Positions 29,366-54,521 of a DNA stretch of 64,000 bases are shown in pieces. Under the pieces are notes generated by a model that saw only the letters and a program-made list of their open reading frames with translations, made no database searches and had not been told where the DNA came from. The translations under genes and the position numbers were made by a program. Within the stretch, counting starts at the first letter, position 1. Every line of letters starts with the position of its first letter. The stretch is taken from contig JBKDZP010000007.1 in NCBI GenBank assembly GCA_047971315.1, positions 7,494 through 71,493 on the forward strand. Direction: 5' to 3'. This DNA comes from Bacilli bacterium (GTDB lineage Bacteria > Bacillota_I > Bacilli_A > RF39 > UBA660).

Positions 29366-29379
29366 ATGGTGGAGAAGTT

Positions 29380-32964: not shown

Positions 32965-32999
32965 AAAAATTATAAAATAATTAAAAGGAAGTATGAAGT

Positions 33000-33488
33000 A
33001 TGAAAAAAAATGTGAATGAAAATAAAGTAATAATAGTTGATGCAGGCATATTAATGCCTTATGAATTAGAAATATTAGATGATTTAAGTACAATTGATTA
33101 TAATCAAATAACTGAAAATCTTATTGAATTTTATAAAAACTATAAAGTATTAAACAAAGCTGGAATCTATTTTTTAGGAACCAAAGAAGAAAGAAATAAT
33201 TTTGATAAAGGATTATCTTATTTTTCAAAAAAAATAAATAAATTTACTAATATAGATAACTTAGGAGATAGTTTAGAAATTAAAATAATAAATGCAATAG
33301 AGTTAATATCAAAAAAAGAAGAAATTAATGATATATCAAATATTATTTATATAAGTAACAAAGAAGATAGAATATGTGTAGCTAATAATATTGGTGTTAC
33401 AACATTATACAACACTGGATATGAAAATTTAGTTAATCCTGAAAATGAACATTCAAAAGTAAAAATCTTAGAAGGATTTTATTATTAA
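33000..33488 (+). CDS. Hypothetical protein
   Basis: 162 aa ORF between miaB and mutL. No family recognised. Confidence 0.35.
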   Translation: MKKNVNENKVIIVDAGILMPYELEILDDLSTIDYNQITENLIEFYKNYKVLNKAGIYFLGTKEERNNFDKGLSYFSKKINKFTNIDNLGDSLEIKIINAIELISKKEEINDISNIIYISNKEDRICVANNIGVTTLYNTGYENLVNPENEHSKVKILEGFYY

Positions 33489-33552
33489 GAAACACTAATT
33501 AGTGTTTTTTTCTATAATTTTTGTTATAATTAAATTAGAAAAAGGTGGTAAA

Positions 33553-35328: not shown

Positions 35329-35414
35329 ATCATTTTTTTAAATTTATTATTTTTTCACATTAATTTCACTTTAAAATTTTATAATTTAAACATACTAAAA
35401 AAGGAGATGAAATT

Positions 35415-36611
35415 ATGAAATGTCCAAAATGTGAATGGAATGGAACAAAAAAAGATATCTACTGCGAAAAATGTGGTAAAAAATTAGTTAAAACATCAAA
35501 GACATTAGGTAAAAAAGTAAAAGAAAAAATATCAACAATTCCTACAAATAAAAAAAGAAAATTTATTATATTATGTATTTGTATATTTGTAATTATAGGA
35601 ATATTAGAATTATTTGCATATTTTAATAGTCCAAAATTTATTGCTACAAAATATTTTAAAGCATTAATAGCAAATGATACAAAAGAAATATATGAATACC
35701 TAGAAACTAGTGCATCAACATTTGTAACTGAAAACTTACTTACTGAAAAAATAGAAACTCTTGGAGCTGTATCTAGTTATTCTGTAAATAATATTCAACA
35801 ATCTAATAATAGTGCAATTGTAACTTTTGTCTATACATTAGAAAATAGTAGTAGAGAATATGTCGCAACTGTTAGTTTAACTAAATCAAGTAAAAATCAC
35901 TATTTAATTTTTGATAATTGGACAATAAATAGTGGAAAATTAGTAGAAAATATTAATATTAAATTACCAAAAAATTCAAAAGTAACGATAGATTCAATAT
36001 CATTAGATAATTATTTAAGTTCTAAATATTCAAATGATTACTATGATGTTTATGTAATACCTACAATGATAAAGGGGGATTATAAAATACAAATTACTCT
36101 TGAAAGTGGAATAGTTAGTGAAGATAATATAAGTATTGAATCAAATACAACATATACGCTAGGTAACATTACACTAGATGATAATTTAGAAGAATCATTA
36201 TCATCAAAAGTTATAAATTCATTAAATAATTTATATATAGCTGCTTTAAATAGCAAAAATTTTAGTGAAATTTCAAGTGAATATTTTTATGAAAATAGTA
36301 ATTTAGATGATTTAGAAAGCAGTTATAAATCATTAAAAAAACATATAACTAATTCAATGGTAGATTTAAAATCAATTAATTTTACAAATGCAGATATTGA
36401 ATCAGTAATATTAAACAATACAGGAAAATTACAAATAGTTTTAACAGTTACTTATAACTATACTTCATCATATACAAATGATTCTGAAACTATTGAATAT
36501 AGTGGAAATGATATAGATACAAAAGTTGTAGTTTTATTTGATTATAGTAATGAAGAGTATCAAATTTATGATTATAGCAGTTTATATGTTAGTTATCCAG
36601 TTAAAAAATAA
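35415..36611 (+). CDS. Zinc-ribbon-anchored membrane protein with large extracytoplasmic domain
   Basis: N-terminal CPKCEWNG...CEKCGKK zinc ribbon, single TM (FIILCICIFVIIGILELFAYF), ~330 aa Ser/Asn-rich external domain. Confidence 0.5.
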   Translation: MKCPKCEWNGTKKDIYCEKCGKKLVKTSKTLGKKVKEKISTIPTNKKRKFIILCICIFVIIGILELFAYFNSPKFIATKYFKALIANDTKEIYEYLETSASTFVTENLLTEKIETLGAVSSYSVNNIQQSNNSAIVTFVYTLENSSREYVATVSLTKSSKNHYLIFDNWTINSGKLVENINIKLPKNSKVTIDSISLDNYLSSKYSNDYYDVYVIPTMIKGDYKIQITLESGIVSEDNISIESNTTYTLGNITLDDNLEESLSSKVINSLNNLYIAALNSKNFSEISSEYFYENSNLDDLESSYKSLKKHITNSMVDLKSINFTNADIESVILNNTGKLQIVLTVTYNYTSSYTNDSETIEYSGNDIDTKVVVLFDYSNEEYQIYDYSSLYVSYPVKK

Positions 36612-36663
36612 TTTAATTTTATAAAAATTCAATAAAATATTTAATAAATTAAAGGAGGAATAT

Positions 36664-37347
36664 ATGAAAAAATATTGTACAAATTGTGGTGAAGAAATAA
36701 ATAAAGAAATTTGTGATTGCAAAAAAAATATAGAAGAAAATAATAAAAATACAGTATTAAATTATGTATCTACATCTATTAATTCAATATTTGAAATGAT
36801 TAAAAGACCAACTAAAACAATGAAAAACTTTGTAAATGATAAAAATTATTCTTTAGGATTAATAATAATATCAATATATTCAATAATAAATGGATTATTA
36901 CTTTTAATAATTTCAAATAAAATATGTAATGCTTATAGACCATTTTTTAGAAGAAATTATTATATGTATTCAAATGATTTATCTAAATATTCAATTTGTT
37001 TAATATTATTAACATTTGTAGCAGTCATATTATTCGCATGTCTTTTATACTTTATTTTAAAAAAATTATTTAATTATAAAGTTTCATTTAAAAATACTTT
37101 ATCATTAGTCGCAATTTCTTCAAGTTTTGATATAATAGGTGGAGTAGTAAGTATTATATTAGTTTCTATTTCTATGCCATTAGTAATTTTTTTGATGATA
37201 ATCACAAAAATATTATTTTTAATAAATGTATATGATGGTATGGATAACTTAAAAGAAGAAATTAATAAAGATACCAAAGGATATATTATAGTATCTACAT
37301 TTATATTTGAAATTTTAGTATTCTTAGTATTTTCATTATTTATATAG
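36664..37347 (+). CDS. Zinc-ribbon protein with polytopic (Yip1-like) membrane domain
   Basis: N-terminal CTNCGEEINKEICDC zinc ribbon followed by 4-5 TM helices. AAGGAGG RBS. Confidence 0.5.
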   Translation: MKKYCTNCGEEINKEICDCKKNIEENNKNTVLNYVSTSINSIFEMIKRPTKTMKNFVNDKNYSLGLIIISIYSIINGLLLLIISNKICNAYRPFFRRNYYMYSNDLSKYSICLILLTFVAVILFACLLYFILKKLFNYKVSFKNTLSLVAISSSFDIIGGVVSIILVSISMPLVIFLMIITKILFLINVYDGMDNLKEEINKDTKGYIIVSTFIFEILVFLVFSLFI

Positions 37348-37425
37348 TACATATAGACTAATTCATTTATTTTTGATATAATGATTTTAGTCTTTTATTA
37401 TGTAAAAAAGAAAGGAGAAAAGAAA

Positions 37426-39072
37426 TTGAGTAAAATAAAAATATTTGGTCTTGGTGGACTAAATGAAAACGGAAAAAATATGTATGTTGTAGAAGTTGAT
37501 AATGATATATTTGTTTTAGAAGCAGGATTAAAATATGCAGATGATAAAATGTTAGGAATTGATTATATTATTCCAAATTACGACTATATTAAGCAAAACA
37601 AAGAGAGAATAAAAGGGATATTTATATCTCATGGACATGATAGTCAAATGGGGGCATTACCTGATATATTAGAAGAATTACCGGATTTACCTATATATGG
37701 AACAGCTTTTACAAATGAAATAATTTCAAAAGAATTAGAAATTGAAGGTATAAAAGCAACTAACTTAAATGTTATAAAACCACATATTAGAATTAATTTT
37801 GGAAAAGTTTCAATATTTCCAATTTCACTTACACATTCGGTTCCTGGTTCTGTAGGTTATGTTATTAATACAGAAAACGGAGCAATTGTATATACAAGTA
37901 ACTTTGTATTTGATCCAACAATGCAAGGTGAGTATAGTATGGATATTGGTAAACTAGCATATGTTGGAAAACAAGGTGTTTTATGTTTAATGAGTGAGTC
38001 ACTTTATGCGGATAAATCAGGATTTACATCTCCAAATAATAGAACTACACCATTAATTAAAGAATTATTACATAAAACAGATGGGAGAATTTTATTTAAT
38101 GTTTTTCAAGCGCATGTACATAGAATACAAGAATTATTTGCTGAAATTATGACAACTGATAGAAAAGTAGTTGTTATGGGAAAAAAATTAGAAAGCATGC
38201 TTACAAAAGCAATTGATTCTAACATTGTTGATTTTGATAAAAACAGATTATGTTCAATACATCATGTTAATGATGAAGGAATAGTTGTTTTAATTTCTGA
38301 TGAAAGAGAAAAACCATTTTCTAATATAACAAGAATTGTAAAAGGATACGATAAATTTATAAAATTATCTGAAGATGATACAGTAGTATTCGCATCACCT
38401 GTATATGATGGTATGGAAAAAAGTTCATCAAAAATACATGATAGTATTTCCAAAATAGGTTCTAAACTTGTTATTCTTTCTAGTAAAAAATATTTAGGTA
38501 ATCACGCATCTAGTGAAGATTTAATGATGATGATTAATCTGATGAATCCAAAATATTACTTTCCAGTAATTGGCGAATTTAGACATCAAGTAGCAAATTC
38601 TAGTGCTGCAAAAAAAGCTGGTATTATGGAACAAAATATTTTACTAAGATTAAACGGTGAAGTAGCACAATTCGAAAATGGAGAGCTAGCTAAAGCTGAT
38701 GAAAAAATTAAAGTAGATGATATTTTAGTTGATGGAAAACAAGCAGGTGATATTGGAGAATTAGTATTAAAAGATAGAGAACTTTTAAGCGGGAACGGTA
38801 TTGTAATAGTGAGTGCTACATTAAGTAGATCTACAAAACAAGTTCTAGCTGGTCCTGAAATATTAACAAGAGGATTCATATATGTAAAAGATAATACTGA
38901 TTTAATAAAAGAAGCTGAAAAAATTTCATTAGCTGTAATTGAAGAAAATACAAAACCAAATTATGTTGATTTTAATAAAATCAAATCAGGTATTCGTGAT
39001 AAATTAGGTAAGTATTTATATCATGAAACAGAATGTAAACCTATGATTTTAATAGTAATGCAAGAAGTATAG
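37426..39072 (+). CDS. rnj: Ribonuclease J (metallo-beta-lactamase/beta-CASP RNase)
   Basis: TTG start after an AAAGGAG RBS (N-terminus SKIKIFGLGGLNENGKNMYVVEVDNDIFVLEAG is the RNase J signature). Beta-CASP and C-terminal domain are present. Motif II reads HGHDSQ instead of HxHxDH. Confidence 0.8.
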   Translation: MSKIKIFGLGGLNENGKNMYVVEVDNDIFVLEAGLKYADDKMLGIDYIIPNYDYIKQNKERIKGIFISHGHDSQMGALPDILEELPDLPIYGTAFTNEIISKELEIEGIKATNLNVIKPHIRINFGKVSIFPISLTHSVPGSVGYVINTENGAIVYTSNFVFDPTMQGEYSMDIGKLAYVGKQGVLCLMSESLYADKSGFTSPNNRTTPLIKELLHKTDGRILFNVFQAHVHRIQELFAEIMTTDRKVVVMGKKLESMLTKAIDSNIVDFDKNRLCSIHHVNDEGIVVLISDEREKPFSNITRIVKGYDKFIKLSEDDTVVFASPVYDGMEKSSSKIHDSISKIGSKLVILSSKKYLGNHASSEDLMMMINLMNPKYYFPVIGEFRHQVANSSAAKKAGIMEQNILLRLNGEVAQFENGELAKADEKIKVDDILVDGKQAGDIGELVLKDRELLSGNGIVIVSATLSRSTKQVLAGPEILTRGFIYVKDNTDLIKEAEKISLAVIEENTKPNYVDFNKIKSGIRDKLGKYLYHETECKPMILIVMQEV

Positions 39073-39206
39073 CATTACTTTTTTTTAAGTATTTCAAATA
39101 AAGTACAAATTTCTACAAAATTGTATAAATCTATTGTAATATAAAAAGAATTTGTGATACTATTATATAGTAACCAAGAGTAGTTATAAAAGTAAAAATT
39201 ATGTGA

Positions 39207-39256
39207 TTAAAATACTATTTATAGAGGTTATTAATAATCTATAAATAGTATTTTAA
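39207..39256. promoter_or_regulatory. Perfect 18-bp inverted repeat (TTAAAATACTATTTATAG-N14-CTATAAATAGTATTTTAA) upstream of the ABC exporter gene
   Basis: Exact reverse complement arms, read directly. Lies 20 nt before the RBS and ATG at 39278. Confidence 0.5.
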
Positions 39257-39277
39257 TAAAAAAGAAGGAAGATTTAA

Positions 39278-40981
39278 ATGAATAATGTAGAAGGTCTAAC
39301 AAAACAAATTTTAAAAGAATCAAAAAAAGAAATTATAGATAAAGTTATTATTTCAATTATAAATAGAGGATTACTACTAGTAATTCCAATTATTTATAGT
39401 ACACTTATTGATCAAACAACCCTAAAAAACTTTGATATAGTTGTATACTATATCATTGCTTTAGCTTTATTTTCAATACTTTACTATATATCTGATGCAA
39501 TAAATATGATAATTTTTAATAAATTGTATAGAAAAATATATCATAAATTTGTAATGAAAGCATATGACAGTACAATGAATAATTCACTATATAGTCTCTC
39601 TAGATTTTCTTTAGGAGAATATTCTAATATTTTAAGAGACGATGTAGTAGTAATGTCAGCATATTTTTCAAATTTCATTATGTGGATGGTTAAATTAGCT
39701 GAATTAATTTTCATCTTTGGATATTTTTTCATCATAAATAAAAACATATTTATTTCTACATTAATAATATTTATATTAATGATAATTTATTTAAAAATAG
39801 GTGGTAAAAAAACTCAGATTTATAATGATGATAGAAAACAAAAATTAGATAAAAATAGTGCAATTGTAATAGAAACATTCAATGGAATAAAAGAAATAAA
39901 AGGATTTTATATTTTTGAACAAATAAAACAAAAAATCGATAAAACTTGTAGTGAATTTCTAAAGTCAGACTCAAAATATAGTAATTATGGTAATAATGCT
40001 AAAAATGTAGTTCTAATTTGGACAGAAATAGTTAGAATAATCCTTGTTGGCTATGGAATTTATCTATTTTCAGTAGGTAAAATGGAATTAGGAGTAATAC
40101 TTCTAATATATACATATTATAGTAAAATACTAGATAATTTCACAATACTTTCAACAATAAGTGTTGAAAGAAAAAATCTAAGAGTATCACAAAATAGATT
40201 TAATAAATTACTAATATATCAAAAAACAAATGAATTAAATTACTATCCAAAAAAAGATTATCAAGGAAGTATAAAATTTGAAGAAGTTTTATATGGTAAT
40301 AAACAAGATCCAATTTTAAACTGTATCTCATTTAAAATACCATCTAATAGTTACACAGTAATTACTGGAAAATTTGGTAGTGGTAAAACTGGAATATTTG
40401 ATTTATTACTTAAACTAAATAGACAACATAACGGTAAAATAACAATTGATGATAATGAAATTGAACTAATTGATGATCTTACATATTATAATTTAATATC
40501 GTCAGTTAGAAAAAGACCAACATTTTTTGATGCAAGTATAATAGAAAATCTTCAAATGGTTGAAAACAATGAAGAAAAAATATTTGAAATATGTAGAATG
40601 CTTAAAATTCATGATGATATATTACGACTTTCGGATGATTATAACACCAACATTAACAGCAAAACAGAAAAAATATCAGATCAACTAAAACATATGTTAG
40701 CAATTTCTAGAGTACTTATAAAAGATTCTAAAATAATGTTATTTGATGAAACAATTAGTGGACTAGATAATGAAAATCAAAAAAATGTTCTAAATATTTT
40801 AAATAATCTTAAAGAAAATCATACTATTATTATAATTACTAGAGAAAAAGAAATAATGAAAAAAGCTGATAAAATAATTGTTGTTGATGAAAATATAATT
40901 GCAGAAGAAGGAACATATAAATCATTAATGAGAAAAAAAGGAATTTATTTCAATTTATTTGGAGTTGATATAGAACTTTAA
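39278..40981 (+). CDS. ABC exporter, fused permease-ATPase (degenerate signature motif)
   Basis: 6-helix TMD plus NBD with Walker A GKFGSGKT and Walker B IMLFDETISGLD. The LSGGQ position reads KISDQ. Confidence 0.75.
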   Translation: MNNVEGLTKQILKESKKEIIDKVIISIINRGLLLVIPIIYSTLIDQTTLKNFDIVVYYIIALALFSILYYISDAINMIIFNKLYRKIYHKFVMKAYDSTMNNSLYSLSRFSLGEYSNILRDDVVVMSAYFSNFIMWMVKLAELIFIFGYFFIINKNIFISTLIIFILMIIYLKIGGKKTQIYNDDRKQKLDKNSAIVIETFNGIKEIKGFYIFEQIKQKIDKTCSEFLKSDSKYSNYGNNAKNVVLIWTEIVRIILVGYGIYLFSVGKMELGVILLIYTYYSKILDNFTILSTISVERKNLRVSQNRFNKLLIYQKTNELNYYPKKDYQGSIKFEEVLYGNKQDPILNCISFKIPSNSYTVITGKFGSGKTGIFDLLLKLNRQHNGKITIDDNEIELIDDLTYYNLISSVRKRPTFFDASIIENLQMVENNEEKIFEICRMLKIHDDILRLSDDYNTNINSKTEKISDQLKHMLAISRVLIKDSKIMLFDETISGLDNENQKNVLNILNNLKENHTIIIITREKEIMKKADKIIVVDENIIAEEGTYKSLMRKKGIYFNLFGVDIEL

Positions 40982-41150
40982 GTCTAAAAAAACCAAAAAA
41001 ACATATATATTTGTTGTAATATATTAAAAATATATGATATAATATTTTTGGCTTTTTCAAATACACACATTACGGATTTTTATGCCTAGTGCCGCTTGGT
41101 GGTATAAAAAGAAGATGTAATGGAGGAAATAACAAAAGGAGGAGATTAAT

Positions 41151-42299
41151 ATGGCAGTAGTGTCAATGAATTATTTATTAGAAGCAGGTGTTCACTTTGG
41201 TCATCAAACTAAAAGATGGAACCCAAAAATGAAAGAATATATTTTTACAGCAAGAGATGAAATATATATAATTGATTTACAAAAAACAGCAAAAAAAATC
41301 GAAGAAGCATATGCAGTTTTAAAATCAATAGCTGGAAATGGTGGTAAGGTTCTATTTGTTGGAACTAGAAAACAAGCTAGTGAAGCTATTAAAGAAGAAG
41401 CAATTAGATCAGAATCATTTTATGTAGCTGAAAGATGGTTAGGTGGTACTTTAACAAACTTCAAAACTATCAGAAGAAGAGTAAAAAGATTAGAAGAAAT
41501 TGAAAAAATGGAAAGTGATGGTACATTCGCACTTTTACCTAAAAAAGAAGTAATTGGAATTAAAAAAGAATATGACAAATTAAACAAATTATTATGTGGT
41601 ATTCGTGAAATGTATAAATTACCAGCTGCATTATTTATAGTAGATCCATCAAAAGAAGACATAGCAATCAAAGAAGCAAGAATTTTAAATATTCCAGTAT
41701 TTGGAATAGTAGATACAAATTGTGATCCAGATATGGTTGATTATGTAATTCCAGGAAATGATGATGCAATTCGTGCTGTAAAACTAATTACAGGTGTAAT
41801 GGCAAATGCAATTGTAGAAGCAAATGGTGGAAAAATAGTTGATTATGTAAAAGAAGATGATAAATCAGAAAACATAATGGAAAGAGCAGTAGAAAGCGTA
41901 AGAAGAAAAGAAGATAGACCAAAACGTTTCAATAATAACTTCGATAATAAAAATAACAATAATAAATTCAATTCTAATAGACCAAATAGATACAATGACA
42001 ATAAATCTAATGATAACAGATATAATAATAAACCAAACGACAATAGATTTAATGAAAATAGATCTAATAATAAACCATTTGAAAATAATACAAATGATTA
42101 TAGAAAATCTAATATTAGAGTTGAAAACCAAGAAACTACACCATTAACTATAGTTGTAGAAACTGTTAAAGAAGAAAAAGCACAAACAGTAGATTTTAGT
42201 AAAGCAACAGTTGCTGAACTAAGAGAAATGGCTAAAGTTAAAGATGTTAAAGGATATACAACAATGAAAAAATCTGAGCTTTTAGAAGCTTTAAAATAA
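41151..42299 (+). CDS. rpsB: 30S ribosomal protein S2 with ~145 aa C-terminal extension
   Basis: Canonical S2 core ([19 protein letters not shown]... to ~aa 235). Then an Asn/Arg/Asp-rich degenerate-repeat tail and a terminal [31 protein letters not shown] motif. Confidence 0.9.
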
Positions 42300-42348
42300 A
42301 TATATAAAGGTGATAAAATCACCTTTTTTAAAAAAGAGGAGGAAATAT

Positions 42349-43227
42349 ATGATAAATGCAAGCTTAGTAAAAGAACTAAGAGAAAAAACTGGAGCTGGAA
42401 TGTTAGATTGCAAAAAAGCTTTAGAAGAAACTGCTGGTGATATTGATGCATCAATTGATTGGCTAAGAGAAAAAGGAATCTCTAAAGCTGCTAAAAAAGC
42501 TGATCGTATAGCTGCAGAAGGTTTAGCATCAGTTTTAATTGATGGAAATAAAGCAGTTATAGTAGAAATTAATTCAGAAACTGATTTTGTTTCTAAAAAT
42601 GAAGAATTTAAAGAATTAGTTAATGAAGTATTAAAAACTTTAATTGAAAGTGATGCCGATACAGTAGAAGTAGCAGAAAAATTAATTTGCTCAAACGGTC
42701 AAACTATTGAAGACTATATTATTGCAAAAACAGCTAAAATAGGTGAAAAATTAAGCTTTAGAAGATTTATTAGAATAGAAAAAGATTCTAATGAAACATT
42801 TGGAGAATATATTCACATGGGTGGTAGAATTGCTGTTCTAACAATCTTAAATGGAGCAAATATTGATGTTGCTAAAGATGTATCTATGCACGCAGCTGCA
42901 ATGAGACCTTTATATGTTAGAAGAGAAAATGTTCCAACAGAAGTAATTGAGCATGAAAGAGAAGTTCTAAAAGAACAAGCAATTAATGAAGGAAAACAAC
43001 CAGAAATCGCTGAAAAAATGGTTGAAGGAAGAGTTCAAAAATACTATAAAGAAAATTGTTTAGAAGAACAACCATTTGTTAAAGATCAAGATATGTCAGT
43101 AAGTACATATGTAAAAAATAATGGTGGCTCAATTTTAAATATGTTCCGTTTCGAAGTAGGAGAAGGAATTGAAAAAAATGAGTGTGATTTTGCTACAGAA
43201 GTAATGAATCAAATAGGAAATAAATAA
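42349..43227 (+). CDS. tsf: Elongation factor Ts
   Basis: AGGAGG RBS before ATG 42349. N-terminus MINASLVKELREKTGAGMLDCKKAL is the EF-Ts UBA-like signature. Confidence 0.9.
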   Translation: MINASLVKELREKTGAGMLDCKKALEETAGDIDASIDWLREKGISKAAKKADRIAAEGLASVLIDGNKAVIVEINSETDFVSKNEEFKELVNEVLKTLIESDADTVEVAEKLICSNGQTIEDYIIAKTAKIGEKLSFRRFIRIEKDSNETFGEYIHMGGRIAVLTILNGANIDVAKDVSMHAAAMRPLYVRRENVPTEVIEHEREVLKEQAINEGKQPEIAEKMVEGRVQKYYKENCLEEQPFVKDQDMSVSTYVKNNGGSILNMFRFEVGEGIEKNECDFATEVMNQIGNK

Positions 43228-43251
43228 AAGACAAAAAATTGTCTTTTTTTC
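43227..43251 (+). terminator. Rho-independent terminator after tsf
   Basis: aaagacaa-aaaa-ttgtcttt hairpin plus T-run. Confidence 0.65.
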
Positions 43252-43323
43252 ATAATCATTTATGATATACTTGATAAAAATCATATTATATAATATAATG
43301 TTTAGAGAATGAGAGGATTAATT

Positions 43324-43866
43324 ATGGAAGATATTTTAAATCAAACAAAACTACGCATGGAAAGTGCAATAGAAAATATGAAAAAAAGACTACAAAATAT
43401 AAGAGCAGGTAGAGCAAACCCATCTATATTAGATAATGTAACAGTTCTATACTATGGATCAGATACACCTTTAATGCAATTAGCTACAATTTCAATACCA
43501 GAAGCTAGACAATTGTGTATTAAACCATTTGATAAATCATGTATTGGTAGTATTGAAAAAGCAATATTTGAAGCAAATATTGGACTAACACCAAATAATA
43601 ATGGTGAAATTATAATTTTAAATATTCCAGCTTTAACTGAAGAAACAAGAAGAGATTACGTTAAACAAGCAAAAAATATTGGTGAAGAATGTAAAATAGC
43701 TTTAAGAAATATTCGTCAAGATTCAAATAATGAAATAAAAAAATTAGAAATAGCTGAAGATACAATCAAAACTACTCAAGAAGAAGTACAAGAATTAATT
43801 AATAAATTCAATAAAACAGTTGAAGATCTAACAAAAATTAAAGAAACAGAATTAATGAGTATTTAA
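43324..43866 (+). CDS. frr: Ribosome recycling factor
   Basis: MEDILNQTKLRMESAIENMKKRLQNIRAGRANPSILDNV is canonical RRF. GAGAGG RBS. Confidence 0.9.
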   Translation: MEDILNQTKLRMESAIENMKKRLQNIRAGRANPSILDNVTVLYYGSDTPLMQLATISIPEARQLCIKPFDKSCIGSIEKAIFEANIGLTPNNNGEIIILNIPALTEETRRDYVKQAKNIGEECKIALRNIRQDSNNEIKKLEIAEDTIKTTQEEVQELINKFNKTVEDLTKIKETELMSI

Positions 43867-43916
43867 TTCTTTTTTTTTAACTATAAATGTGGTAAAATTA
43901 GTTAAAGGTGATAAAT

Positions 43917-44318
43917 ATGGAACAACAAACACGTAGTGAATTAAGAAAAAAAATAATGACAATTTTATATCAAATAAATGTATATAAAAATAATAAAATG
44001 AAATATTCAGTTGATGATATATTAAAAGAAGTATTAGAAATTGATAATGAATTTGTCAAAGACAGTGTATATGGAGTAATTACATATCAAGAAGAATTAG
44101 AAAAAATTGCAAATAAATATTTAGAAGGTTGGTCAATTGATAGACTAGGAAACACAGATAAAGCAATTTTACAACTAGGTTTATATGAATTAATCTATAC
44201 TAATACTCCAGATATTGTATGTATAAATGAAGCTATTGAACTTGCAAAATTATATAGTGATGATAGTGTAAGAAAAATGATAAATGGTGTTTTAGATACT
44301 GCATACAATAATAAGTAG
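43917..44318 (+). CDS. nusB: Transcription antitermination factor NusB
   Basis: ~134 aa all-helical protein with a NusB-like pattern (RSELRKKIMTILYQ...IDRLGNTDKAILQLGLYEL). AAGGTGA RBS. Confidence 0.75.
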   Translation: MEQQTRSELRKKIMTILYQINVYKNNKMKYSVDDILKEVLEIDNEFVKDSVYGVITYQEELEKIANKYLEGWSIDRLGNTDKAILQLGLYELIYTNTPDIVCINEAIELAKLYSDDSVRKMINGVLDTAYNNK

Positions 44319-44326
44319 GTGAAATA

Positions 44327-45604
44327 ATGGACGACAAATATTTAACAGTAACCGCCCTAACAAAATATTTAAAATATAAATTTGATACTGATCCAAATCT
44401 TAGAAAAGTATTTCTAAAAGGTGAAATATCAAACTTTAAATCACATACAACTGGACACTTTTATTTTTCAATAAAAGATGAAACAAGTAAAATAAATGCT
44501 ATAATGTTTAGTAATAATACTAAAAAATTAAATTTTATTCCAAAAGAAGGAATGAAAGTATTAGTAACTGGATTAATAAGTGTATATGAATCAACAGGTG
44601 GTTATCAAATATATGTTGATGATTTGATTGAAGATGGAGTAGGTAATTTATATATTGCCTTTGAACAATTAAAAGAAAAATTAACAAAAGAAGGATTATT
44701 TGATCAAAAAAATAAAAAATCAATTCCTAAATATCCAACTAAAATAGGGATTATTACAGCTAGTACTGGTGCTGCTATAAAAGATATTTTATCAACAATT
44801 AAAAGAAGATATCCAATATGTGAAACTTATCTTTTCCCTTGTTTAGTTCAAGGAGAAAACTCATCTAAAGATATTGTAAAAAAAATAAATCAAGCTGAAA
44901 ATTTTAAATTAGATGTTTTAATAGTAGGTAGAGGCGGTGGATCATTTGAGGATTTAAATTCATTTAATGATGAAGATGTTGCAAGAACTATTTTTGCTTC
45001 AAATATACCTATAATAAGTGCTGTTGGTCATGAAGTTGACTTTACAATTGCAGATTTTGTAGCAGACCTTAGAGCTCCAACACCAACTGGAGCTGCAGAG
45101 ATGGCCGTACCTAATTTAGCTGACTTAATTAATAAATTAGAACAATATAAAATTAGAATTAATGAAGCAACATTAAAAACACTAAATTATAACAAACTTT
45201 ATTTAGATAGCATAAAAAATTCGTTTGTAATAAAAAATCCAATGATAATGTATCAAAATAAACAACAAAATCTCGATTTAATTTTGGATAAATTAAATAA
45301 TATTATGCTAAAAAAAGTTGATATTACTAAAAATAAATTTGACAAATTAAAAAGTAATTATATTTTAAAAAATCCCAATATTCTTTTTAAAAATCATATT
45401 ATAAATCTAAACAATATAATAGAAAAACTTGAAATAATAAATCCAATCGGAGTATTAAAACGTGGGTTTACATTAACTTATAATAAAGATATTTTAGTAA
45501 AAACTATTACTGATGTTAAATTAAATGATAGTTTGAAAATTAAACTAATTGATGGTGATTTAAATGTTAATGTAGTAGAAATTAAAGGAGAAACACATGA
45601 ATAA
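44327..45604 (+). CDS. xseA: Exodeoxyribonuclease VII large subunit
   Basis: N-terminal OB-fold (VFLKGEISNFKSHTTGHFYFSIKDETSKINAIMF), central catalytic domain (VGRGGGSFEDL), followed by an overlapping small-subunit gene. Confidence 0.85.
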   Translation: MDDKYLTVTALTKYLKYKFDTDPNLRKVFLKGEISNFKSHTTGHFYFSIKDETSKINAIMFSNNTKKLNFIPKEGMKVLVTGLISVYESTGGYQIYVDDLIEDGVGNLYIAFEQLKEKLTKEGLFDQKNKKSIPKYPTKIGIITASTGAAIKDILSTIKRRYPICETYLFPCLVQGENSSKDIVKKINQAENFKLDVLIVGRGGGSFEDLNSFNDEDVARTIFASNIPIISAVGHEVDFTIADFVADLRAPTPTGAAEMAVPNLADLINKLEQYKIRINEATLKTLNYNKLYLDSIKNSFVIKNPMIMYQNKQQNLDLILDKLNNIMLKKVDITKNKFDKLKSNYILKNPNILFKNHIINLNNIIEKLEIINPIGVLKRGFTLTYNKDILVKTITDVKLNDSLKIKLIDGDLNVNVVEIKGETHE

Positions 45605-45818
45605 AGAATTAAAATTTGAGGATAAAATAAAAGAATTAGAAACAACTATTTCTGAACTTGAAAATGGGGAAATTCCGTTAGAAGAATCAATAGAAAAATA
45701 TACTAAAGCAATGAAACTTGTAAAAGAATGTGATGAAAAATTAAAAAATATTGAAATTCAAGTCAATAAAGTTATATTAGAAAATGGTCAAATAGAAGAC
45801 TTCGAAATAAATGAATAA
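45597..45818 (+). CDS. xseB: Exodeoxyribonuclease VII small subunit
   Basis: 73 aa helical protein (FEDKIKELETTISELENGEIPLEESIEKYTKAMKLVKECDEKL) overlapping the xseA stop. Confidence 0.8.
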   Translation: MNKELKFEDKIKELETTISELENGEIPLEESIEKYTKAMKLVKECDEKLKNIEIQVNKVILENGQIEDFEINE

Positions 45819-45911
45819 ATTTACCAAAAAATACTAATGCAATATTGGTATTTTTTTAGAAATTAAAATAATAATAATATTGTAGTCTGTAAAATTAAAG
45901 GAGACGATGTT

Positions 45912-46904
45912 ATGTTTTTTAAAAAAATTAAAAAATATGCTACAGTCTTTCTTCTAACATTTATTATTATACCAAATCAAGTACTTGCTTATTCAAATTA
46001 TCTTATTCCCGGTGGTGAAAATATTGGTATTGAAGTTAATTCAAAAGGAATTATAATAGTTGGAACATATGAAGTAAATGGAACAAAACCAGCAAATAAT
46101 GCTGGTTTAAAACAGGGTGATATTATTACTCAAGTAGACGATAAAGATGTTAAAAATATAGATGAAATGATAAATATAATAAACTTATCAAAATCATTAA
46201 ATTTAAAAATAACTTTTAAAAGAGACAATGAAATATTAAACACTACTTTATCAATTTATAAAGATGGAGATATTTTAAAAACTGGACTTTATGTTAAAGA
46301 TAGTATTACAGGAATAGGAACGCTAAGTTTTATTGACCCAAATACTAAAATATATGGTGCATTAGGTCATGAAATAATAGAAAAAACTACTGGTAAAATA
46401 TTGGAAGTTCAAAATGGTACCATATTTGAATCAACTGTAATTGATATCGAACGAAGTGAAAATGGTGATCCAGGAAGTAAAAATGCTACACTAAATAGTT
46501 CAAATACAAATGGTACAATAATCGAGAATACAGAAAGTGGTATCTTTGGTACATTTACATCCAATCTTCCTTCCAAAAAACTTTATAAAGTAGCTCAATA
46601 TAATGAAATAAAATTGGGAGAGGCTAAAATATTAACAGTAGTTGAGGGAAATGATTTAGGAGAATATTCAATAAATATATTAGAAGTGAATAATGAAAAT
46701 ACATCTAAAACAAAAAATATTCTATTTGAAATAACCGACCAAAATTTATTAAATAAAACCGGTGGAATAGTACAAGGAATGAGTGGTTCAACAATTATTC
46801 AAGGAAACTATATAATTGGAGCTGTTACACATGTTATAGTTGATAATCCTAAAAGAGGTTATGGTATATTAATTACAAATATGTTAGAAGAAGCAGAAAA
46901 TTAG
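45912..46904 (+). CDS. spoIVB: Sporulation stage IV protein B (SpoIVB signalling serine peptidase, S55)
   Basis: Signal/TM N-terminus, PDZ domain (GDIITQVDDKDVKNIDEM), S55 protease motif GMSGSTIIQGNYIIGAVTHV. Terminator hairpin 46903..46927. Confidence 0.8.
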   Translation: MFFKKIKKYATVFLLTFIIIPNQVLAYSNYLIPGGENIGIEVNSKGIIIVGTYEVNGTKPANNAGLKQGDIITQVDDKDVKNIDEMINIINLSKSLNLKITFKRDNEILNTTLSIYKDGDILKTGLYVKDSITGIGTLSFIDPNTKIYGALGHEIIEKTTGKILEVQNGTIFESTVIDIERSENGDPGSKNATLNSSNTNGTIIENTESGIFGTFTSNLPSKKLYKVAQYNEIKLGEAKILTVVEGNDLGEYSINILEVNNENTSKTKNILFEITDQNLLNKTGGIVQGMSGSTIIQGNYIIGAVTHVIVDNPKRGYGILITNMLEEAEN

Positions 46905-47007
46905 AGACATTTTGTCTCTTTTCATTTAGTCAAATTTGTAGTATACTATATATAGGTAATAGTATACAATTTATTAAAAGAAATAAATGAATGTGAGGAT
47001 TGATTAG

Positions 47008-47808
47008 ATGAAAACAAGAATAATTAGTGCAATTATAGCACTAGCTATATGTTTACCAATTTTATTTTTAGGAGGAACAATTTATAAGCTAGGTATTTAT
47101 ATTTTAAGTATAATTTCACTTCATGAATTTTTAGAATTAAAACAAACAAAAAAAGAAATGCCAAGTTTTATTAATTTTATTTCGTATTTAATTTTAACTT
47201 TATTAGTGTTATCAAATATAAATACAACTACCATTTTATTTAAATTGGATTTTAGAATTATATCTGGATTATTTTTAGTTTTTTTACTACCAACTGTACT
47301 GTATCAAGATAACACAAAATATAGTATTGCAGATGCTTTTTTCTTTATAGGATCTTTGGTTTTTATAGGAGCTAGTTTTTCATTATTAATTTTAATAAGA
47401 AATATTTCTTTAAACTTAATAATTTATTTATTTGTGATTACAATATTCACAGATACATATGCTTTATTAGTTGGTAAGTTAATTGGTAAACATAAAATGG
47501 TCGAAAAAATATCTCCTAACAAAACTTGGGAAGGTATGATTGGAGGAACTTTTTTTGGAGTAGTAGCAGGAGTACTTTTCTATAATACAGTAATAGATAA
47601 TTCATTTAATATACTAACTTTAATAGGTATTACTTTATTTTTATCAATTATAGGACAATATGGTGATTTAGTTTTCTCAACAATAAAAAGATATTTTGGA
47701 AAAAAAGATTTTTCAAATATTATGCCAGGTCATGGTGGAATATTAGATAGACTTGACAGTATTATATTTGTAGTGCTTAGTTTTACATTTTTTATAGGAA
47801 TACTGTAA
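47008..47808 (+). CDS. cdsA: Phosphatidate cytidylyltransferase
   Basis: Polytopic membrane protein with C-terminal PGHGGILDRLDS signature. Confidence 0.85.
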   Translation: MKTRIISAIIALAICLPILFLGGTIYKLGIYILSIISLHEFLELKQTKKEMPSFINFISYLILTLLVLSNINTTTILFKLDFRIISGLFLVFLLPTVLYQDNTKYSIADAFFFIGSLVFIGASFSLLILIRNISLNLIIYLFVITIFTDTYALLVGKLIGKHKMVEKISPNKTWEGMIGGTFFGVVAGVLFYNTVIDNSFNILTLIGITLFLSIIGQYGDLVFSTIKRYFGKKDFSNIMPGHGGILDRLDSIIFVVLSFTFFIGIL

Positions 47809-47821
47809 AAGGAGGAATAAT

Positions 47822-48859
47822 ATGTCTTTTATATATTTTGTAATTGTTCTTGGAATTACAATTTTAATTCATGAACTAGGTCACTTTATATTCGCAAAAA
47901 AAGCTAATATATATGTATATGAATTTTCTATTGGAATGGGACCAAAAATATTTAGCTATAAAAGAAAAAACGATGAAACAATTTATTCAATTCGTTTATT
48001 TCCAATTGGTGGTTTTGTTAGCATGGCTGGTGAAGACAATTCAAATAACGATAGAGTTTCTGATGATAGAAAACTTTATAATAAAACATGGATGCAAAGG
48101 TTTTTAACAATAATAGCAGGAGTAGCATTTAACTTTATTTTAGCTATTATACTTTTATTTTGTGTTGGAATGATTGCAGGTGTTTCTAACAATAAACCAA
48201 TAATATATTCAGTAGATTCTAATTATCCAATTTCTTTAACAAATGTTTCAAAAGGTGATTTGATAACTGCAATTAATAATAAAAAAATATCTTCTACTGA
48301 TATGTTATTACTAGAATTACAAATTAATTATGGAAAAACAATTACGATTGATTTTAAAAGAGGTGATAAATCTTTTCAAGTTGATGCTAAACCCGTTTTA
48401 ACAAAATCTAATGGCAGTGAAAGCTATGCATATGGATTTTCACTAGACAATACTAAAGAATATGGTTTTATAGCAGCTTTTAAATATGCGTTTAATAAAA
48501 CAATAAGCTTAATAGTTCAAATGTTTTATATATTAATATATTTAATAACTGGTAAATTAAGTCTTAATAGTTTAGCTGGCCCAGTTGGGATGTTCTCAAT
48601 AGTTAGTACAGCTGCAAGTACTGGTATTATTAATATAATTTACTTAATTGCTTATTTATGTATCAATGTAGGATTTATTAATTTAATTCCTTTTCCAGCA
48701 TTCGATGGAGGTAGAGTTTTCTTTCTAATGATTGAGGGAATAAGAAAGAAAAAAATAAAACCTGAAATTGAAAATACGATTAATACCATAGGTTTTGTTT
48801 TCTTAATGACTTTTATGATATTTATAACATTTCAAGATATAATAAGAATATTTAAATAA
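47822..48859 (+). CDS. rseP: Site-2 (RIP) zinc metalloprotease RseP/RasP
   Basis: HELGHFIFAKK (HExxH) in TM1, PDZ domain, LDG motif (FPAFDGGRV). AAGGAGG RBS. Confidence 0.85.
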   Translation: MSFIYFVIVLGITILIHELGHFIFAKKANIYVYEFSIGMGPKIFSYKRKNDETIYSIRLFPIGGFVSMAGEDNSNNDRVSDDRKLYNKTWMQRFLTIIAGVAFNFILAIILLFCVGMIAGVSNNKPIIYSVDSNYPISLTNVSKGDLITAINNKKISSTDMLLLELQINYGKTITIDFKRGDKSFQVDAKPVLTKSNGSESYAYGFSLDNTKEYGFIAAFKYAFNKTISLIVQMFYILIYLITGKLSLNSLAGPVGMFSIVSTAASTGIINIIYLIAYLCINVGFINLIPFPAFDGGRVFFLMIEGIRKKKIKPEIENTINTIGFVFLMTFMIFITFQDIIRIFK

Positions 48860-48934
48860 AGATAAATTCTTTATTTTTTTTAAAAGGAAATTTATAATTT
48901 TTTTAGAATAATAAAAGTAAGGAGGTGAGAATAT

Positions 48935-49702
48935 ATGAATCTTGAATTTATAAAAAAAGAATATAAAAAATTAATAATAATTTTAATATTAGTGGTCAGT
49001 ATTATTTTTTTAATTATTGCGGATAAAAATAATATTCAAGATATAGAAATTACTAAAAATGAACTAAATGAAGAAAATAAAATAGAAGAAGTAATAAATA
49101 ATAAAATTAAACTTGATATAAAAGGTGCTGTAAATAATCCTGGAGTTTATGAATTAGATAATAATACTAGAGTTGTAGATGTCATTTTTAAAGCAGGTGG
49201 CCTTACAGAGGATGCAAATACAACTTTACTTAATTTATCTAAAACTGTATTTGATGAAATGGTTATAATTATATATACAAACAATGAAATAGAAACATTC
49301 AAACATAGTCAACTAACTGAATCAAACTTAAATATAGAGAAAAAAAATGATAACAATGTAATTGAATATATTTATCTACAAAATGAATGTTCATGTCCAA
49401 ATACTATTAATAATGCATGCAATGAATGTAACAAAATAATTACTAATTTAGTAAAAGAAGAAATAAAGAGTACAGAAATGAATTCAACAAATAATGAACC
49501 ATCTAAATCAAGTTTAATTTCTCTTAATAACGCAACTTTAGAACAATTAATGTCTTTATCAGGTATTGGAGAATCTAAAGCTAATGCTATCATATCTTAC
49601 CGAAATGAAATAGGAAAATATACTAATATTGAACAAATAAAAAATGTTAGTGGTATAGGTGATGCTGCATTTGATAAAATTAAAAATAATATTACTTTGT
49701 AG
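48935..49702 (+). CDS. comEA: Competence protein ComEA (DNA receptor)
   Basis: N-terminal TM anchor, SLBB-like domain (IKLDIKGAVNNPGVYEL), C-terminal tandem HhH (LSGIGESKANAIISYR...VSGIGDAAFDKI). Central Cys cluster ECSCPNTINNACNEC. Confidence 0.8.
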   Translation: MNLEFIKKEYKKLIIILILVVSIIFLIIADKNNIQDIEITKNELNEENKIEEVINNKIKLDIKGAVNNPGVYELDNNTRVVDVIFKAGGLTEDANTTLLNLSKTVFDEMVIIIYTNNEIETFKHSQLTESNLNIEKKNDNNVIEYIYLQNECSCPNTINNACNECNKIITNLVKEEIKSTEMNSTNNEPSKSSLISLNNATLEQLMSLSGIGESKANAIISYRNEIGKYTNIEQIKNVSGIGDAAFDKIKNNITL

Positions 49703-54517: not shown

Positions 54518-54521
54518 TAAT

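What the first reader, a model, noticed from the sequence alone, without database searches (positions are those of the whole stretch)
41860..42299. Ribosomal protein S2 carries a ~145 aa C-terminal tail: Asn/Arg-rich degenerate repeats ending in a Rho_N/SAP-like helix motif
The S2 core ends near residue 235, but the ORF continues to 382 aa. The tail has degenerate repeats ([11 protein letters not shown] / [34 protein letters not shown]), encoded by visibly repetitive DNA at ~41930..42110. It is followed by [31 protein letters not shown]. This closely resembles the N-terminal helix-hairpin motif of transcription terminator Rho (Rho_N/SAP-like; pattern LSELxxLAKxLGIxGYSKMRKxELIxAIL). S2 sits at the mRNA entry/S1 docking side of the 30S subunit. 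A disordered basic tail with a nucleic-acid-binding SAP/Rho_N module appended there could recruit mRNA or a partner protein.
Basis: partly seen in the sequence, partly recalled or inferred. Interest (0 to 1): 0.55.

Follow-up and report, generated by a model that had tools for sequence, protein, structure and literature searches.

The report
Ribosomal protein S2 with Rho_N tail
The gene for ribosomal protein S2 in this uncultured low-GC gut bacterium really does carry a long floppy tail ending in a small, highly conserved module of the Rho_N/SAP type; hundreds of related species share it, ribosomal protein L20 carries the same module in relatives, and its role is untested.

Summary
ORF 41151..42299 (+) is a complete rpsB gene of 382 aa. 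A canonical uS2 core (aa 1-225) is followed by a hinge and a semi-conserved helix (226-259), a disordered linker (260-352), and a 30-residue C-terminal module (353-382). The first part of the linker is an Asn/Arg/aromatic degenerate repeat.

The module passes Pfam's curated threshold for Rho_N (29.6 bits against 24.9). It is predicted with good confidence as helix, extended loop, helix.

It is not a frameshift artefact. All 120 best S2 relatives and at least 76 species genomes encode the same fusion. Mean pairwise identity is 82% for the module and 89% for the core. The linker is 23% identical and varies from 38 to 95 aa, including repeat-unit indels.

In the same clade, bL20 carries a near-identical C-terminal module in at least 120 protein clusters, in normal infC-rpmI-rplT context.

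The most likely role is a flexibly tethered nucleic-acid (probably RNA) binding module on the ribosome's solvent face. This is an inference from plant RHON1; nothing was tested here.

I found no paper on it, although databases tag the domains automatically. In passing I found a covariation-supported, Rfam-unmatched 5' leader upstream of rpsB.

The parts
41014..41043 (+). Promoter-like site upstream of rpsB: TTGTAA, 18-nt spacer, TATAAT preceded by TG
   Evidence: Consensus scan, 10 of 12 matches. The TTG and TATG.TATAAT elements are conserved in the upstream alignment of related loci.
41047..41150 (+). Structured 5' leader of rpsB, a candidate autoregulatory element. Seen in passing; it belongs to the same transcription unit.
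   Evidence: 36 related loci were aligned. RNAalifold predicts 19 pairs, 11 with compensatory changes. 96% of cells are paired, and the covariation score is 0.42 against 0.19 in shuffles and 0.04-0.10 in slid controls. No Rfam match.
41151..41825 (+). uS2 core, aa 1-225
   Evidence: Pfam PF00318 scores 328 bits and TIGR01011 342 bits. Mean pairwise identity among 52 homologues is 0.89. Aligns to solved Firmicute S2 chains.
41826..41927 (+). Hinge (aa 226-240) and semi-conserved helix [19 protein letters not shown] (aa 241-259)
   Evidence: Mean pairwise identity is 0.52 for the hinge and 0.66 for the helix. AF2 predicts a helix at 242-254, at low confidence.
41928..42125 (+). Asn/Arg/aromatic-rich degenerate repeat region, aa 260-325: 41% Asn, net charge +5, an aromatic residue about every 8-10 aa from 264 on
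   Evidence: TRF periods 15 and 42; the repeat finder; codon-shuffle control 5/1000; composition. AF2 pLDDT below 50. 5-aa unit indels among close relatives.
42126..42206 (+). Mixed-charge Lys/Glu/Val/Thr spacer, aa 326-352, leading into the module
   Evidence: The whole linker (260-346) has mean pairwise identity 0.23 and a length of 38-95 aa across homologues. AF2 pLDDT is below 50 up to aa 346.
42207..42296 (+). C-terminal Rho_N-family helix-extended-helix module, aa 353-382 ([30 protein letters not shown])
   Evidence: Pfam Rho_N scores 29.6 and 34.8 bits against a threshold of 24.9. Mean pairwise identity is 0.82 with 15 invariant positions. AF2 gives helices 354-363 and 374-381 at pLDDT 81-86. 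The best Foldseek hit is E. coli Rho 1a8v, TM 0.76 and rmsd 1.6 A, although E is above 1. The module always ends 30-31 residues after its first Thr.
42297..42299 (+). rpsB stop codon (TAA)
42306..42326 (.). Hairpin AAAGGTGAT-AAA-ATCACCTTT followed by T residues, between rpsB and tsf. It looks like an attenuator or terminator.
   Evidence: The terminator scan reports it on the minus strand; the palindrome reads the same on the plus strand and is followed by TTT. An analogous hairpin plus T-run precedes tsf in L081.

Best explanation
**Shown.** This is the organism's bona fide rpsB gene. Its product is uS2 with a clade-conserved, three-part C-terminal extension:
1. A short semi-conserved helix.
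2. A fast-evolving, variable-length, intrinsically disordered linker. In this genome it is Asn/Arg/aromatic repeats followed by a Lys/Glu/Val spacer.
3. A strongly constrained 30-residue helix-extended-helix module of the Rho_N family at the very C-terminus.

The same module, with the same invariant residues, is fused to the C-terminus of bL20 in related genomes.

**Inferred.** The linker acts as a flexible tether. With about 90 disordered residues I estimate a typical reach of 60-70 A and a contour length of about 330 A. The terminal module acts as a low-specificity nucleic-acid binder, most probably for RNA. This would decorate the solvent face of both subunits with RNA-catching modules. On S2 the module would sit near the mRNA exit, platform and S1-docking region. 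There it could raise the local concentration of mRNA or nascent rRNA, helping mRNA capture or retention, or ribosome assembly.
For: **Identity**
- uS2 and Rho_N profile hits are both above curated cut-offs.
- rpsB-tsf-frr synteny is normal.

**Selection**
- Mean pairwise identity is 0.82 for the module and 0.89 for the core. The linker is 0.23 identical and 38-95 aa long.
- The module always sits at the exact C-terminus.

**Breadth**
- All 120 best S2 homologues carry PF07498 together with PF00318.
- At least 468 tblastn-confirmed stretches were found in the one-genome-per-species collection. Of the 80 fetched, 76 lie in S2 and 4 in L20.
- At least 120 L20+Rho_N clusters exist, in canonical operon context.
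- L012 (L20) and L054 (S2) come from the same MAG.
- The S2 and L20 modules share the invariant pattern TVAEL..AK.K...G.STMKKAEL..AL but have paralogue-specific residues. At module position 15 (aa 367 here), S2 has Lys in 97% and L20 has Glu in 82%. This points to old, separately maintained fusions under a common constraint.

**Structure**
- Linker pLDDT is below 50; module pLDDT is 81-89 with two helices.
- The nearest solved folds are the Rho N-terminal subdomain and the FAN1 SAP domain. The nearest solved sequences are the Ku70 SAP domain and M. tuberculosis Rho.

**Functional precedent**
- The C-terminal 40-aa Rho-N motif of Arabidopsis RHON1 alone shifts RNAs in gel-shift assays, including 16S and 23S rRNA fragments (PMC3458557).
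Against: - No binding, localisation or proteomic evidence exists for this protein. I found no paper on it.
- The module's net charge is only +2.
- Domains of the HeH clan bind DNA (SAP, LEM-like) or proteins in other contexts.
- From my own knowledge, in Rho itself the primary RNA site is the OB fold, not the N-terminal helices.
- The Foldseek matches are not statistically significant for a 40-residue query (E above 1).
- The full-length AF2 model is poor (mean pLDDT 55.8), so it cannot show whether the module docks back on the core.
- Whether the tail is retained in mature ribosomes is unknown.
Confidence: 0.5

Rival explanations
1. The module is a protein-protein docking module. It recruits a shared partner to both subunits, such as RNA polymerase/NusA/NusG for transcription-translation coupling, an RNase or helicase, or Rho. 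Alternatively it pairs with other copies of itself to bridge subunits or ribosomes, for example in hibernation or storage in spores.
For: - The invariant surface residues are identical on S2 and L20, which fits a single specific ligand.
- Many proteins in the representative library carry 2-8 tandem copies, as expected of an interaction or avidity module.
- The window's organism has sporulation genes.
- From my own knowledge, S2 lies at the 30S-30S interface of Firmicute 100S dimers.
Against: - No candidate partner was identified.
- Only one copy of the module occurs in the 64-kb window, and none of the 80 fetched loci has a second copy.
- The experimentally characterised relatives of this fold mostly bind nucleic acid (RHON1; SAP domains).
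Confidence: 0.22
2. The module is a DNA (nucleoid) tether. Like the SAP and LEM-like members of the HeH clan, it would bind double-stranded DNA and keep ribosomes or free r-proteins close to the chromosome.
For: - The best solved sequence match is the Ku70 SAP domain (1jjr, E 8.5e-7 summed over two identical stretches of the chain).
- FAN1 SAP is among the fold hits.
- 90 of the 148 top relatives of the module also hit Pfam SAP, and 53 hit HeH.
Against: - The window's module scores below threshold for SAP (13.4 bits against 23.9) and HeH (15.2 against 28.9), but above threshold for Rho_N.
- Its carriers (S2, L20) are RNA-binding proteins embedded in an RNA machine.
- Nothing tested here bears on the DNA-versus-RNA preference of this module.
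Confidence: 0.13
3. The module assists autoregulation. From my own knowledge, S2 and L20 are both r-proteins that repress their own operons in model bacteria by binding the mRNA leader. The extra RNA-binding module would strengthen or alter leader binding by the free protein.
For: - The two well-supported carriers are S2 and L20.
- A strongly covarying structured leader precedes rpsB in this clade.
Against: - This is a coincidence argument based on two proteins.
- In model organisms the core proteins suffice.
- No link between the module and the leader was tested.
- Other proteins appear with the module in metagenomic fragments (Jag_N-type, S16), though some of those are chimeric.
Confidence: 0.08
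4. The tail is an artefact or non-functional junk: a frameshift or assembly fusion, or a neutral low-complexity expansion in a 23.5% G+C genome.
For: - The Asn-rich repeats match the AT bias of the genome (G+C 23.5%).
- Some related database entries are clearly chimeric: P0008 and P0009 have duplicated core segments, and in L081 an S16-plus-tail ORF is followed by tsf.
Against: - The reading frame is uninterrupted.
- The same fusion is found in all 120 best homologues and in 76 of the 80 fetched species-representative loci.
- The module is 82% identical across sequences whose linker is only 23% identical.
- The Pfam hit is above threshold.
- This reading could at most hold for the repeat part of the linker.
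Confidence: 0.02

Closest known systems
N-terminal helical subdomain of transcription terminator Rho (Pfam Rho_N, PF07498; e.g. E. coli Rho residues ~1-47, PDB 1a8v)
   Same: The sequence pattern is shared (hydrophobic-x-E-L-x-x-h-A-K ... G-Y-S-x-M-K/R-K-x-E-L-I-x-A-L). The HMM score is above the gathering threshold. The predicted helix-extended-helix fold superposes with TM 0.76 and rmsd 1.6 A.
   Different: Here the module lies at the extreme C-terminus of a ribosomal protein, not at the N-terminus. No OB-fold RNA-binding domain and no ATPase follow it. It is not a Rho protein.
RHON1 of Arabidopsis chloroplasts, which has a C-terminal Rho-N motif (PMC3458557)
   Same: It also has a 40-aa Rho-N module at the very C-terminus, after a low-complexity charged stretch. 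That module alone binds RNAs, including 16S and 23S rRNA fragments.
   Different: The carrier is an RNase E-associated factor, not a ribosomal protein. It is plant-specific, and the linker is acidic rather than basic and Asn-rich.
bL20 with an 'unknown domain' fusion (NCBIfam NF011109 / PRK14537) and the L20+Rho_N proteins of this clade
   Same: The tail of the window's S2 aligns to profile positions 116-224 of that model (E 7.8e-5). L20 proteins of related genomes end in a near-identical module.
   Different: The carrier protein and the ribosomal subunit differ. The L20 linker is short (about 40 aa, Lys/Glu-rich) and lacks the Asn/Arg repeats. L20 has Glu where S2 has Lys at module position 15.
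SAP / HeH / LEM-like domains (e.g. Ku70 SAP 1jjr, FAN1 SAP 4rea)
   Same: Same two-helix fold class. There are weak sequence and fold matches, and many relatives of the module hit these Pfam models.
   Different: The window's module is below threshold for the SAP and HeH models. Those domains are mostly eukaryotic DNA binders.
Other lineage-specific uS2 C-terminal extensions (NCBIfam NF008966 long S2; NF051451 'sunset domain variant'; extended uS2 in chloroplast and Mycoplasma pneumoniae ribosomes, 7ooc)
   Same: The principle is the same: a conserved uS2 core with an appended C-terminal region on the solvent side.
   Different: The appended sequences are unrelated. Only the core (profile positions 1-225) matches those models, and no solved S2 aligns past about aa 257-263.

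Membership tests
Bacterial ribosomal protein uS2 (TIGR01011 rpsB_bact / Pfam PF00318) | Profile score above the curated cut-off over the full length of the model | tested here: met
   PF00318 scores 328.3 bits (cut-off 26.1) over profile 1-215 of 216. TIGR01011 scores 342.3 bits (cut-off 76.3) over profile 1-223 of 225.
Bacterial ribosomal protein uS2 (TIGR01011 rpsB_bact / Pfam PF00318) | Conserved gene neighbourhood, rpsB followed by tsf | tested here: met
   tsf (TIGR00116, E 6e-101) starts 41 nt after the rpsB stop, then frr and nusB follow.
Rho_N domain (Pfam PF07498, HeH clan) | HMM score at or above the gathering threshold (24.9 bits) | tested here: met
   29.6 bits in the whole protein and 34.8 bits for the last 35 aa. 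All 148 top relatives of the module also hit Rho_N.
Rho_N domain (Pfam PF07498, HeH clan) | Helix, extended loop, helix fold | tested here: met
   AF2 predicts helices 354-363 and 374-381 joined by a 10-residue loop, at pLDDT 81-89 in two independent jobs.
Rho_N domain (Pfam PF07498, HeH clan) | Significant structural match to a solved Rho N-terminal subdomain | tested here: inconclusive
   The top Foldseek hits are Rho (1a8v, 8q3n, 9ff7, 1pv4) with TM 0.71-0.76 and rmsd 1.5-1.8 A. E-values are 1.4-3.8 because the query has only 40 residues.
Rho_N domain (Pfam PF07498, HeH clan) | Nucleic-acid binding | not testable with these tools
   There is only a precedent: the RHON1 C-terminal 40 aa binds RNA (PMC3458557).
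Transcription termination factor Rho (the protein) | OB-fold/CSD-like RNA-binding domain directly after Rho_N | tested here: not met
   The module ends at the stop codon. There is no Rho_RNA_bind hit, even at E up to 10.
Transcription termination factor Rho (the protein) | RecA-type hexameric ATPase domain | tested here: not met
   No ATPase domain hit. The protein is S2 plus a tail.
SAP (PF02037) / HeH-LEM (PF12949) domains | HMM score at or above the gathering threshold | tested here: not met
   SAP scores 13.4 bits against 23.9. HeH scores 15.2 against 28.9. FANC_SAP scores 14.0 against 23. The relationship holds only at clan level.
NCBIfam NF011109 (PRK14537) 'L20/unknown domain fusion protein' | Whole-protein score at or above 187 bits, including the L20 domain | tested here: not met
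   22.4 bits. Only the tail aligns (profile 116-224 of 232), and there is no L20 domain. The tails are homologous but the protein is not a member.
NCBIfam NF051451 'S2, sunset domain variant' | Whole-protein score at or above 710 bits, including the C-terminal sunset domain | tested here: not met
   301 bits. Only profile positions 1-225 of 382 are matched.

The most novel reading that the evidence does not exclude
A large clade of uncultured low-GC gut Bacilli has fitted several ribosomal proteins on both subunits (uS2, bL20, possibly more) with one and the same tethered Rho_N module. This would form a ribosome-surface 'antenna' system with a single shared ligand. It might capture mRNA or nascent RNA, or couple ribosomes to the transcription or RNA-processing machinery, taking over work done elsewhere by separate factors such as S1-type mRNA recruitment.
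Probability: 0.15. Interest if true: 0.7.

Novelty: new variant of a known kind. Interest (0 to 1): 0.42.

Why it matters
- **Ribosome diversity.** Lineage-specific extensions of ribosomal proteins are one of the few ways bacterial ribosomes differ between clades. Most known bacterial examples are unstructured. Here a folded, strongly constrained module of a known nucleic-acid-binding fold is tethered to proteins of both subunits, across hundreds of species of abundant but uncultured gut bacteria.
- **If it binds RNA or a partner.** It would be a natural case of the ribosome acquiring a new recruitment surface.
- **Practical use.** It is a simple sequence marker for the clade.
- **Limits.** Both domains are already tagged automatically in databases. 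The function is entirely inferred. No organism carrying it was identified here as cultured.

Tried and rejected
**Dead ends**
1. A protein search with the tail alone returned only 6 fragments. The full-length query was needed.
2. An exact-sequence lookup of the window's own protein on contigs found nothing on record.
3. Four literature searches for S2 or ribosomal proteins with Rho_N or helix-extended-helix modules, and for uS2 extensions, gave nothing relevant apart from RHON1. One further search call failed on a term-length error.
4. A Rfam search of the rpsB leader at a permissive E-value gave only a chance snoRNA hit.
5. A regex screen found no Rho-type ATPase motifs among the 149 best module-bearing representatives.

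**Weak results**
6. The full-length AF2 model was poor because the alignment is shallow (mean pLDDT 55.8). It cannot show whether the module docks on the core. Only the per-region confidence was used.
7. Foldseek of the 40-aa module gave Rho and SAP as top hits but no significant E-values.

**Ideas rejected**
8. An S16+module fusion (P0246) looked like a third ribosomal carrier. Its 633-bp contig starts mid-S16 and is followed by tsf, so it is probably a chimeric assembly. I count it as unconfirmed.
9. Several other small 'carriers' in the representative library look like assembly chimeras joined at the conserved tail and were not counted. An example is a homoserine-dehydrogenase N-terminus plus tail.
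10. I first read the relatives as non-sporulating, Mollicutes-like organisms. Sporulation genes in the window contradict that.

**Could not be tested**
11. Whether rho or rpsA (S1) exist in these genomes.
Full report
**1. What is in the sequence**

ORF 41151..42299 on the + strand is uninterrupted and encodes 382 aa. Pfam Ribosomal_S2 covers aa 9-223 (E 2e-98) and TIGR01011 covers aa 3-225 (E 9e-103). EF-Ts (tsf) starts 41 nt downstream, followed by frr, nusB and xseA. Upstream lie miaB, mutL, an RNase J and an ABC transporter. This is therefore the organism's normal rpsB gene in its normal context. The exact protein is in NCBI as MFV0249948.1, 'MAG: 30S ribosomal protein S2 [Bacilli bacterium]'. 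The window has 23.5% G+C.

**2. Anatomy of the tail**

An alignment of 52 full-length homologues (A3) and region-wise statistics divide the protein into five parts.

| Region | aa | Mean pairwise identity | Note |
|---|---|---|---|
| Core | 1-225 | 0.89 | canonical uS2 |
| Hinge | 226-240 | 0.52 | |
| Helix [19 protein letters not shown] | 241-259 | 0.66 | semi-conserved |
| Linker | 260-346 | 0.23 | length 38-95 aa |
| Terminal module | 353-382 | 0.82 | fixed length of 30 aa, 15 invariant positions |

Solved Firmicute S2 chains are 232-261 aa and align only to about aa 257. The truly extra part is therefore about aa 260-382.

In the window's protein the first two thirds of the linker (aa 260-325) have these properties:
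- 41% Asn.
- Net charge +5.
- An aromatic residue about every 8-10 positions from 264 on (260, 264, 273, 281, 291, 300, 310, 317).

The underlying DNA is repetitive. TRF reports periods of 15, 27, 42 and 57 nt in 41985..42104, and the repeat finder gives a 57-nt family at 63-75% identity. A codon shuffle reached the observed 43/57 matches at offset 42 in only 5 of 1000 trials. The repeat is real but degenerate.

Close relatives differ by whole 5-aa units (NRSND, DSRPS) and 7-aa units (PVVETAK).

AlphaFold2 gives pLDDT below 50 for residues 233-346. I read the linker as disordered.

**3. Identity of the terminal module**

- The last 30 residues match Pfam Rho_N at 29.6 bits in the whole protein and 34.8 bits in isolation. 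The gathering threshold is 24.9.
- SAP, HeH and FANC_SAP match only below threshold.
- Two independent AF2 runs predict helix 354-363, a 10-residue loop and helix 374-381, at pLDDT 81-89.
- Foldseek against the PDB puts the E. coli Rho RNA-binding domain first (1a8v, TM 0.76, rmsd 1.6 A over 36 columns). More Rho entries and the FAN1 SAP domain follow. The E-values (1.4 and above) are not significant for so small a query.
- A profile of the module finds the Ku70 SAP domain, M. tuberculosis Rho (E 1.6e-3) and another Rho (E 0.015) among solved chains.
- Searched against 1.84 billion representative proteins, the profile finds 7187 clusters at E up to 1e-3.
- All 148 of the best hits that were scanned match Pfam Rho_N. 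90 of them also match SAP and 53 match HeH.
- Many of these carry 2-8 tandem copies.

The module is therefore a member of a very widespread, mobile helix-extended-helix family. It is not a Rho protein: no OB fold or ATPase follows it.

**4. Not an artefact; a clade-wide trait**

- All 120 best S2 homologues (331-391 aa, apart from two evidently mis-assembled entries of 452 and 524 aa) carry PF07498 together with PF00318. They end in nearly the same 30 residues.
- A scan of one genome per species with the module alignment confirmed at least 468 stretches.
- Of the 80 loci fetched, 76 place the module at the end of S2.
- The record titles are uncultured 'Bacilli', 'Tenericutes', 'Mycoplasmatota' and 'Bacillota' bacteria from gut and rumen, Candidatus Fimihabitans, Faecisoma and Coprosoma, and Firmicutes bacterium CAG:822. 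Two of the contigs are whole replicons: a 1.20-Mb contig named circular and a 1.54-Mb chromosome.
- NCBI taxonomy files these genera as incertae sedis. I did not determine the GTDB order.
- The window itself encodes SpoIIGA plus an adjacent sigma factor, SpoIVB, and a YlbD coat-like protein.

**5. The same module on bL20**

- Four of the 80 loci place the module at the C-terminus of ribosomal protein L20.
- One of these (L012) comes from the same MAG as an S2 locus (L054).
- In L073 the gene lies in the canonical infC-rpmI-rplT operon and is followed by unrelated genes.
- A search with this L20 found at least 120 clusters carrying PF00453 together with PF07498.
- NCBIfam already has a model named 'L20/unknown domain fusion protein' (NF011109), and the window's tail aligns weakly to its C-terminal half.
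- The S2 and L20 modules share the invariant pattern TVAEL..AK.K...G.STMKKAEL..AL. They differ consistently at module position 15 (aa 367 here): Lys in 97% of S2, Glu in 82% of L20. The preceding charged position also differs.
- These are therefore separately maintained paralogous fusions under a common constraint, not recent copies.
- An apparent S16 fusion (P0246) sits on a 633-bp contig that starts mid-S16 and runs into tsf. It is probably chimeric, and I count it as unconfirmed.
- No second copy of the module occurs in the window.

**6. How it most likely works**

*Shown:* a disordered, rapidly evolving tether of variable length ends in a strongly constrained small folded module at the free C-terminus, and the same module sits on proteins of both subunits.

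*From my own knowledge of ribosome structures:*
- S2 sits on the solvent side of the 30S subunit at the head-body junction. It is next to the platform, the mRNA exit and the S1 docking site.
- The C-terminal domain of L20 is solvent-exposed on the 50S.

*Inferred:*
- A linker of about 90 residues would let the module sweep a radius of roughly 60-70 A. Its contour length is about 330 A.
- The only experimental precedent I found for a C-terminal Rho-N module is Arabidopsis RHON1. Its last 40 aa alone bind RNAs, including 16S and 23S rRNA fragments (PMC3458557).
- I therefore favour a tethered, low-specificity RNA-binding module that concentrates mRNA or nascent rRNA at the ribosome surface. My confidence in this function is about 0.4-0.5.

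*Rivals:*
- A protein docking or self-association module (0.22).
- A DNA or nucleoid tether like SAP domains (0.13).
- A helper for autoregulation (0.08). From my own knowledge, S2 and L20 are both autoregulators in model bacteria.
- An artefact (0.02).

**7. Comparison with what is known, and novelty**

- The closest relatives are the Rho N-terminal subdomain, RHON1's C-terminal Rho-N motif, the L20 fusion family, SAP/HeH domains, and other unrelated uS2 extensions. These include the NCBIfam long-S2 and 'sunset' variants, which match only the core, and M. pneumoniae S2.
- Domain databases already tag both domains on these proteins.
- Four full-text searches found no paper describing Rho_N modules on bacterial ribosomal proteins.
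- No solved ribosome contains this module.
- I rate it a new variant of a known kind: known protein, known domain, undescribed clade-wide combination on two ribosomal proteins. Interest is moderate.

**8. Seen in passing**

- *rpsB leader.* The roughly 100-nt leader (about 41047..41150) lies downstream of a conserved extended -10 promoter (41014..41043). It is conserved in related loci. It folds into three covarying helices, plus an invariant pairing of the 5' GCUUUU with the AAAAG just before the Shine-Dalgarno sequence.
  - 19 pairs are predicted, 11 with compensatory changes, and 96% of cells are paired.
  - The covariation score is 0.42, against 0.19 in shuffles and 0.04-0.10 in slid controls.
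  - It matches no Rfam family.
  - It is a good candidate for an S2-responsive autoregulatory leader.
- *Hairpin.* A hairpin with a T-run lies between rpsB and tsf (42306..42326). It has a counterpart in L081.
- *Operon order.* tsf is followed directly by frr, with no pyrH between them.

Noticed in passing
window 41047..41150 (+), with promoter-like site 41014..41043: Conserved structured 5' leader of rpsB. It has three covarying helices, plus an invariant pairing of the 5' GCUUUU with the AAAAG next to the Shine-Dalgarno sequence. 19 pairs are predicted, 11 with compensatory changes, and the covariation score is 0.42 against 0.19 in shuffles. No Rfam family matches. It is a candidate S2 autoregulatory leader.
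   Followed up: yes
L012 2551..3108, L052 6..524, L073 2578..3123, L075 2551..3108: Ribosomal protein bL20 of related genomes ends in a near-identical Rho_N module after a short Lys/Glu linker. It lies in normal infC-rpmI-rplT context, and at least 120 protein clusters carry the fusion.
   Followed up: yes
L081 109..498 (633-bp ENA contig): An S16 + Rho_N ORF (P0246) starts mid-S16 after GC-rich sequence and is followed by the start of tsf, which normally follows rpsB. It is probably a chimeric assembly joined at the conserved tail. Several other odd small 'carriers' in the representative library look similar.
   Followed up: partly
window 42306..42326: Hairpin AAAGGTGAT-AAA-ATCACCTTT with following T residues, between rpsB and tsf. 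It looks like an attenuator or terminator, and a similar hairpin precedes tsf in L081.
   Followed up: partly
window 22395..23887, 45912..46901 and 17761..18123: Sporulation-type genes: SpoIIGA protease followed by a sigma factor, SpoIVB peptidase, and a YlbD coat-like protein. The relatives are labelled Tenericutes/Mycoplasmatota and two of their contigs are 1.2-1.5 Mb replicons, yet the lineage appears to keep sporulation genes.
   Followed up: no
window 43227..43309: tsf is followed directly by frr. The pyrH gene that commonly lies between them is absent here.
   Followed up: no
proteins P0008 (524 aa) and P0009 (452 aa): S2 homologues with internal duplications of long core segments. They most likely reflect mis-assembled short metagenomic contigs rather than real variants.
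   Followed up: partly
proteins P0127-P0160: Many proteins in the representative library carry 2-8 tandem copies of the same Rho_N/SAP-type module, some together with kinase, MORN or other domains. The module is a widespread, mobile unit far beyond bacteria-type ribosomal proteins.
   Followed up: partly
window 33000..33485, 35415..36608, 36664..37344 (no NCBIfam hit); 1772..2173, 8116..8649, 12680..13537, 17300..17710 (no Pfam hit): Sizeable ORFs with no family match at the thresholds used.
   Followed up: no
window 5679..6062, 48935..51758, 56754..58712: Competence and pseudopilus-type genes: a prepilin-like protein with an FTLVELMGV N-terminus, ComEA-like and ComEC-like proteins, and a T2SS F-type platform protein.
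   Followed up: no
window 1..64000: No Rfam family reaches its gathering score anywhere in the 64 kb.
   Followed up: no
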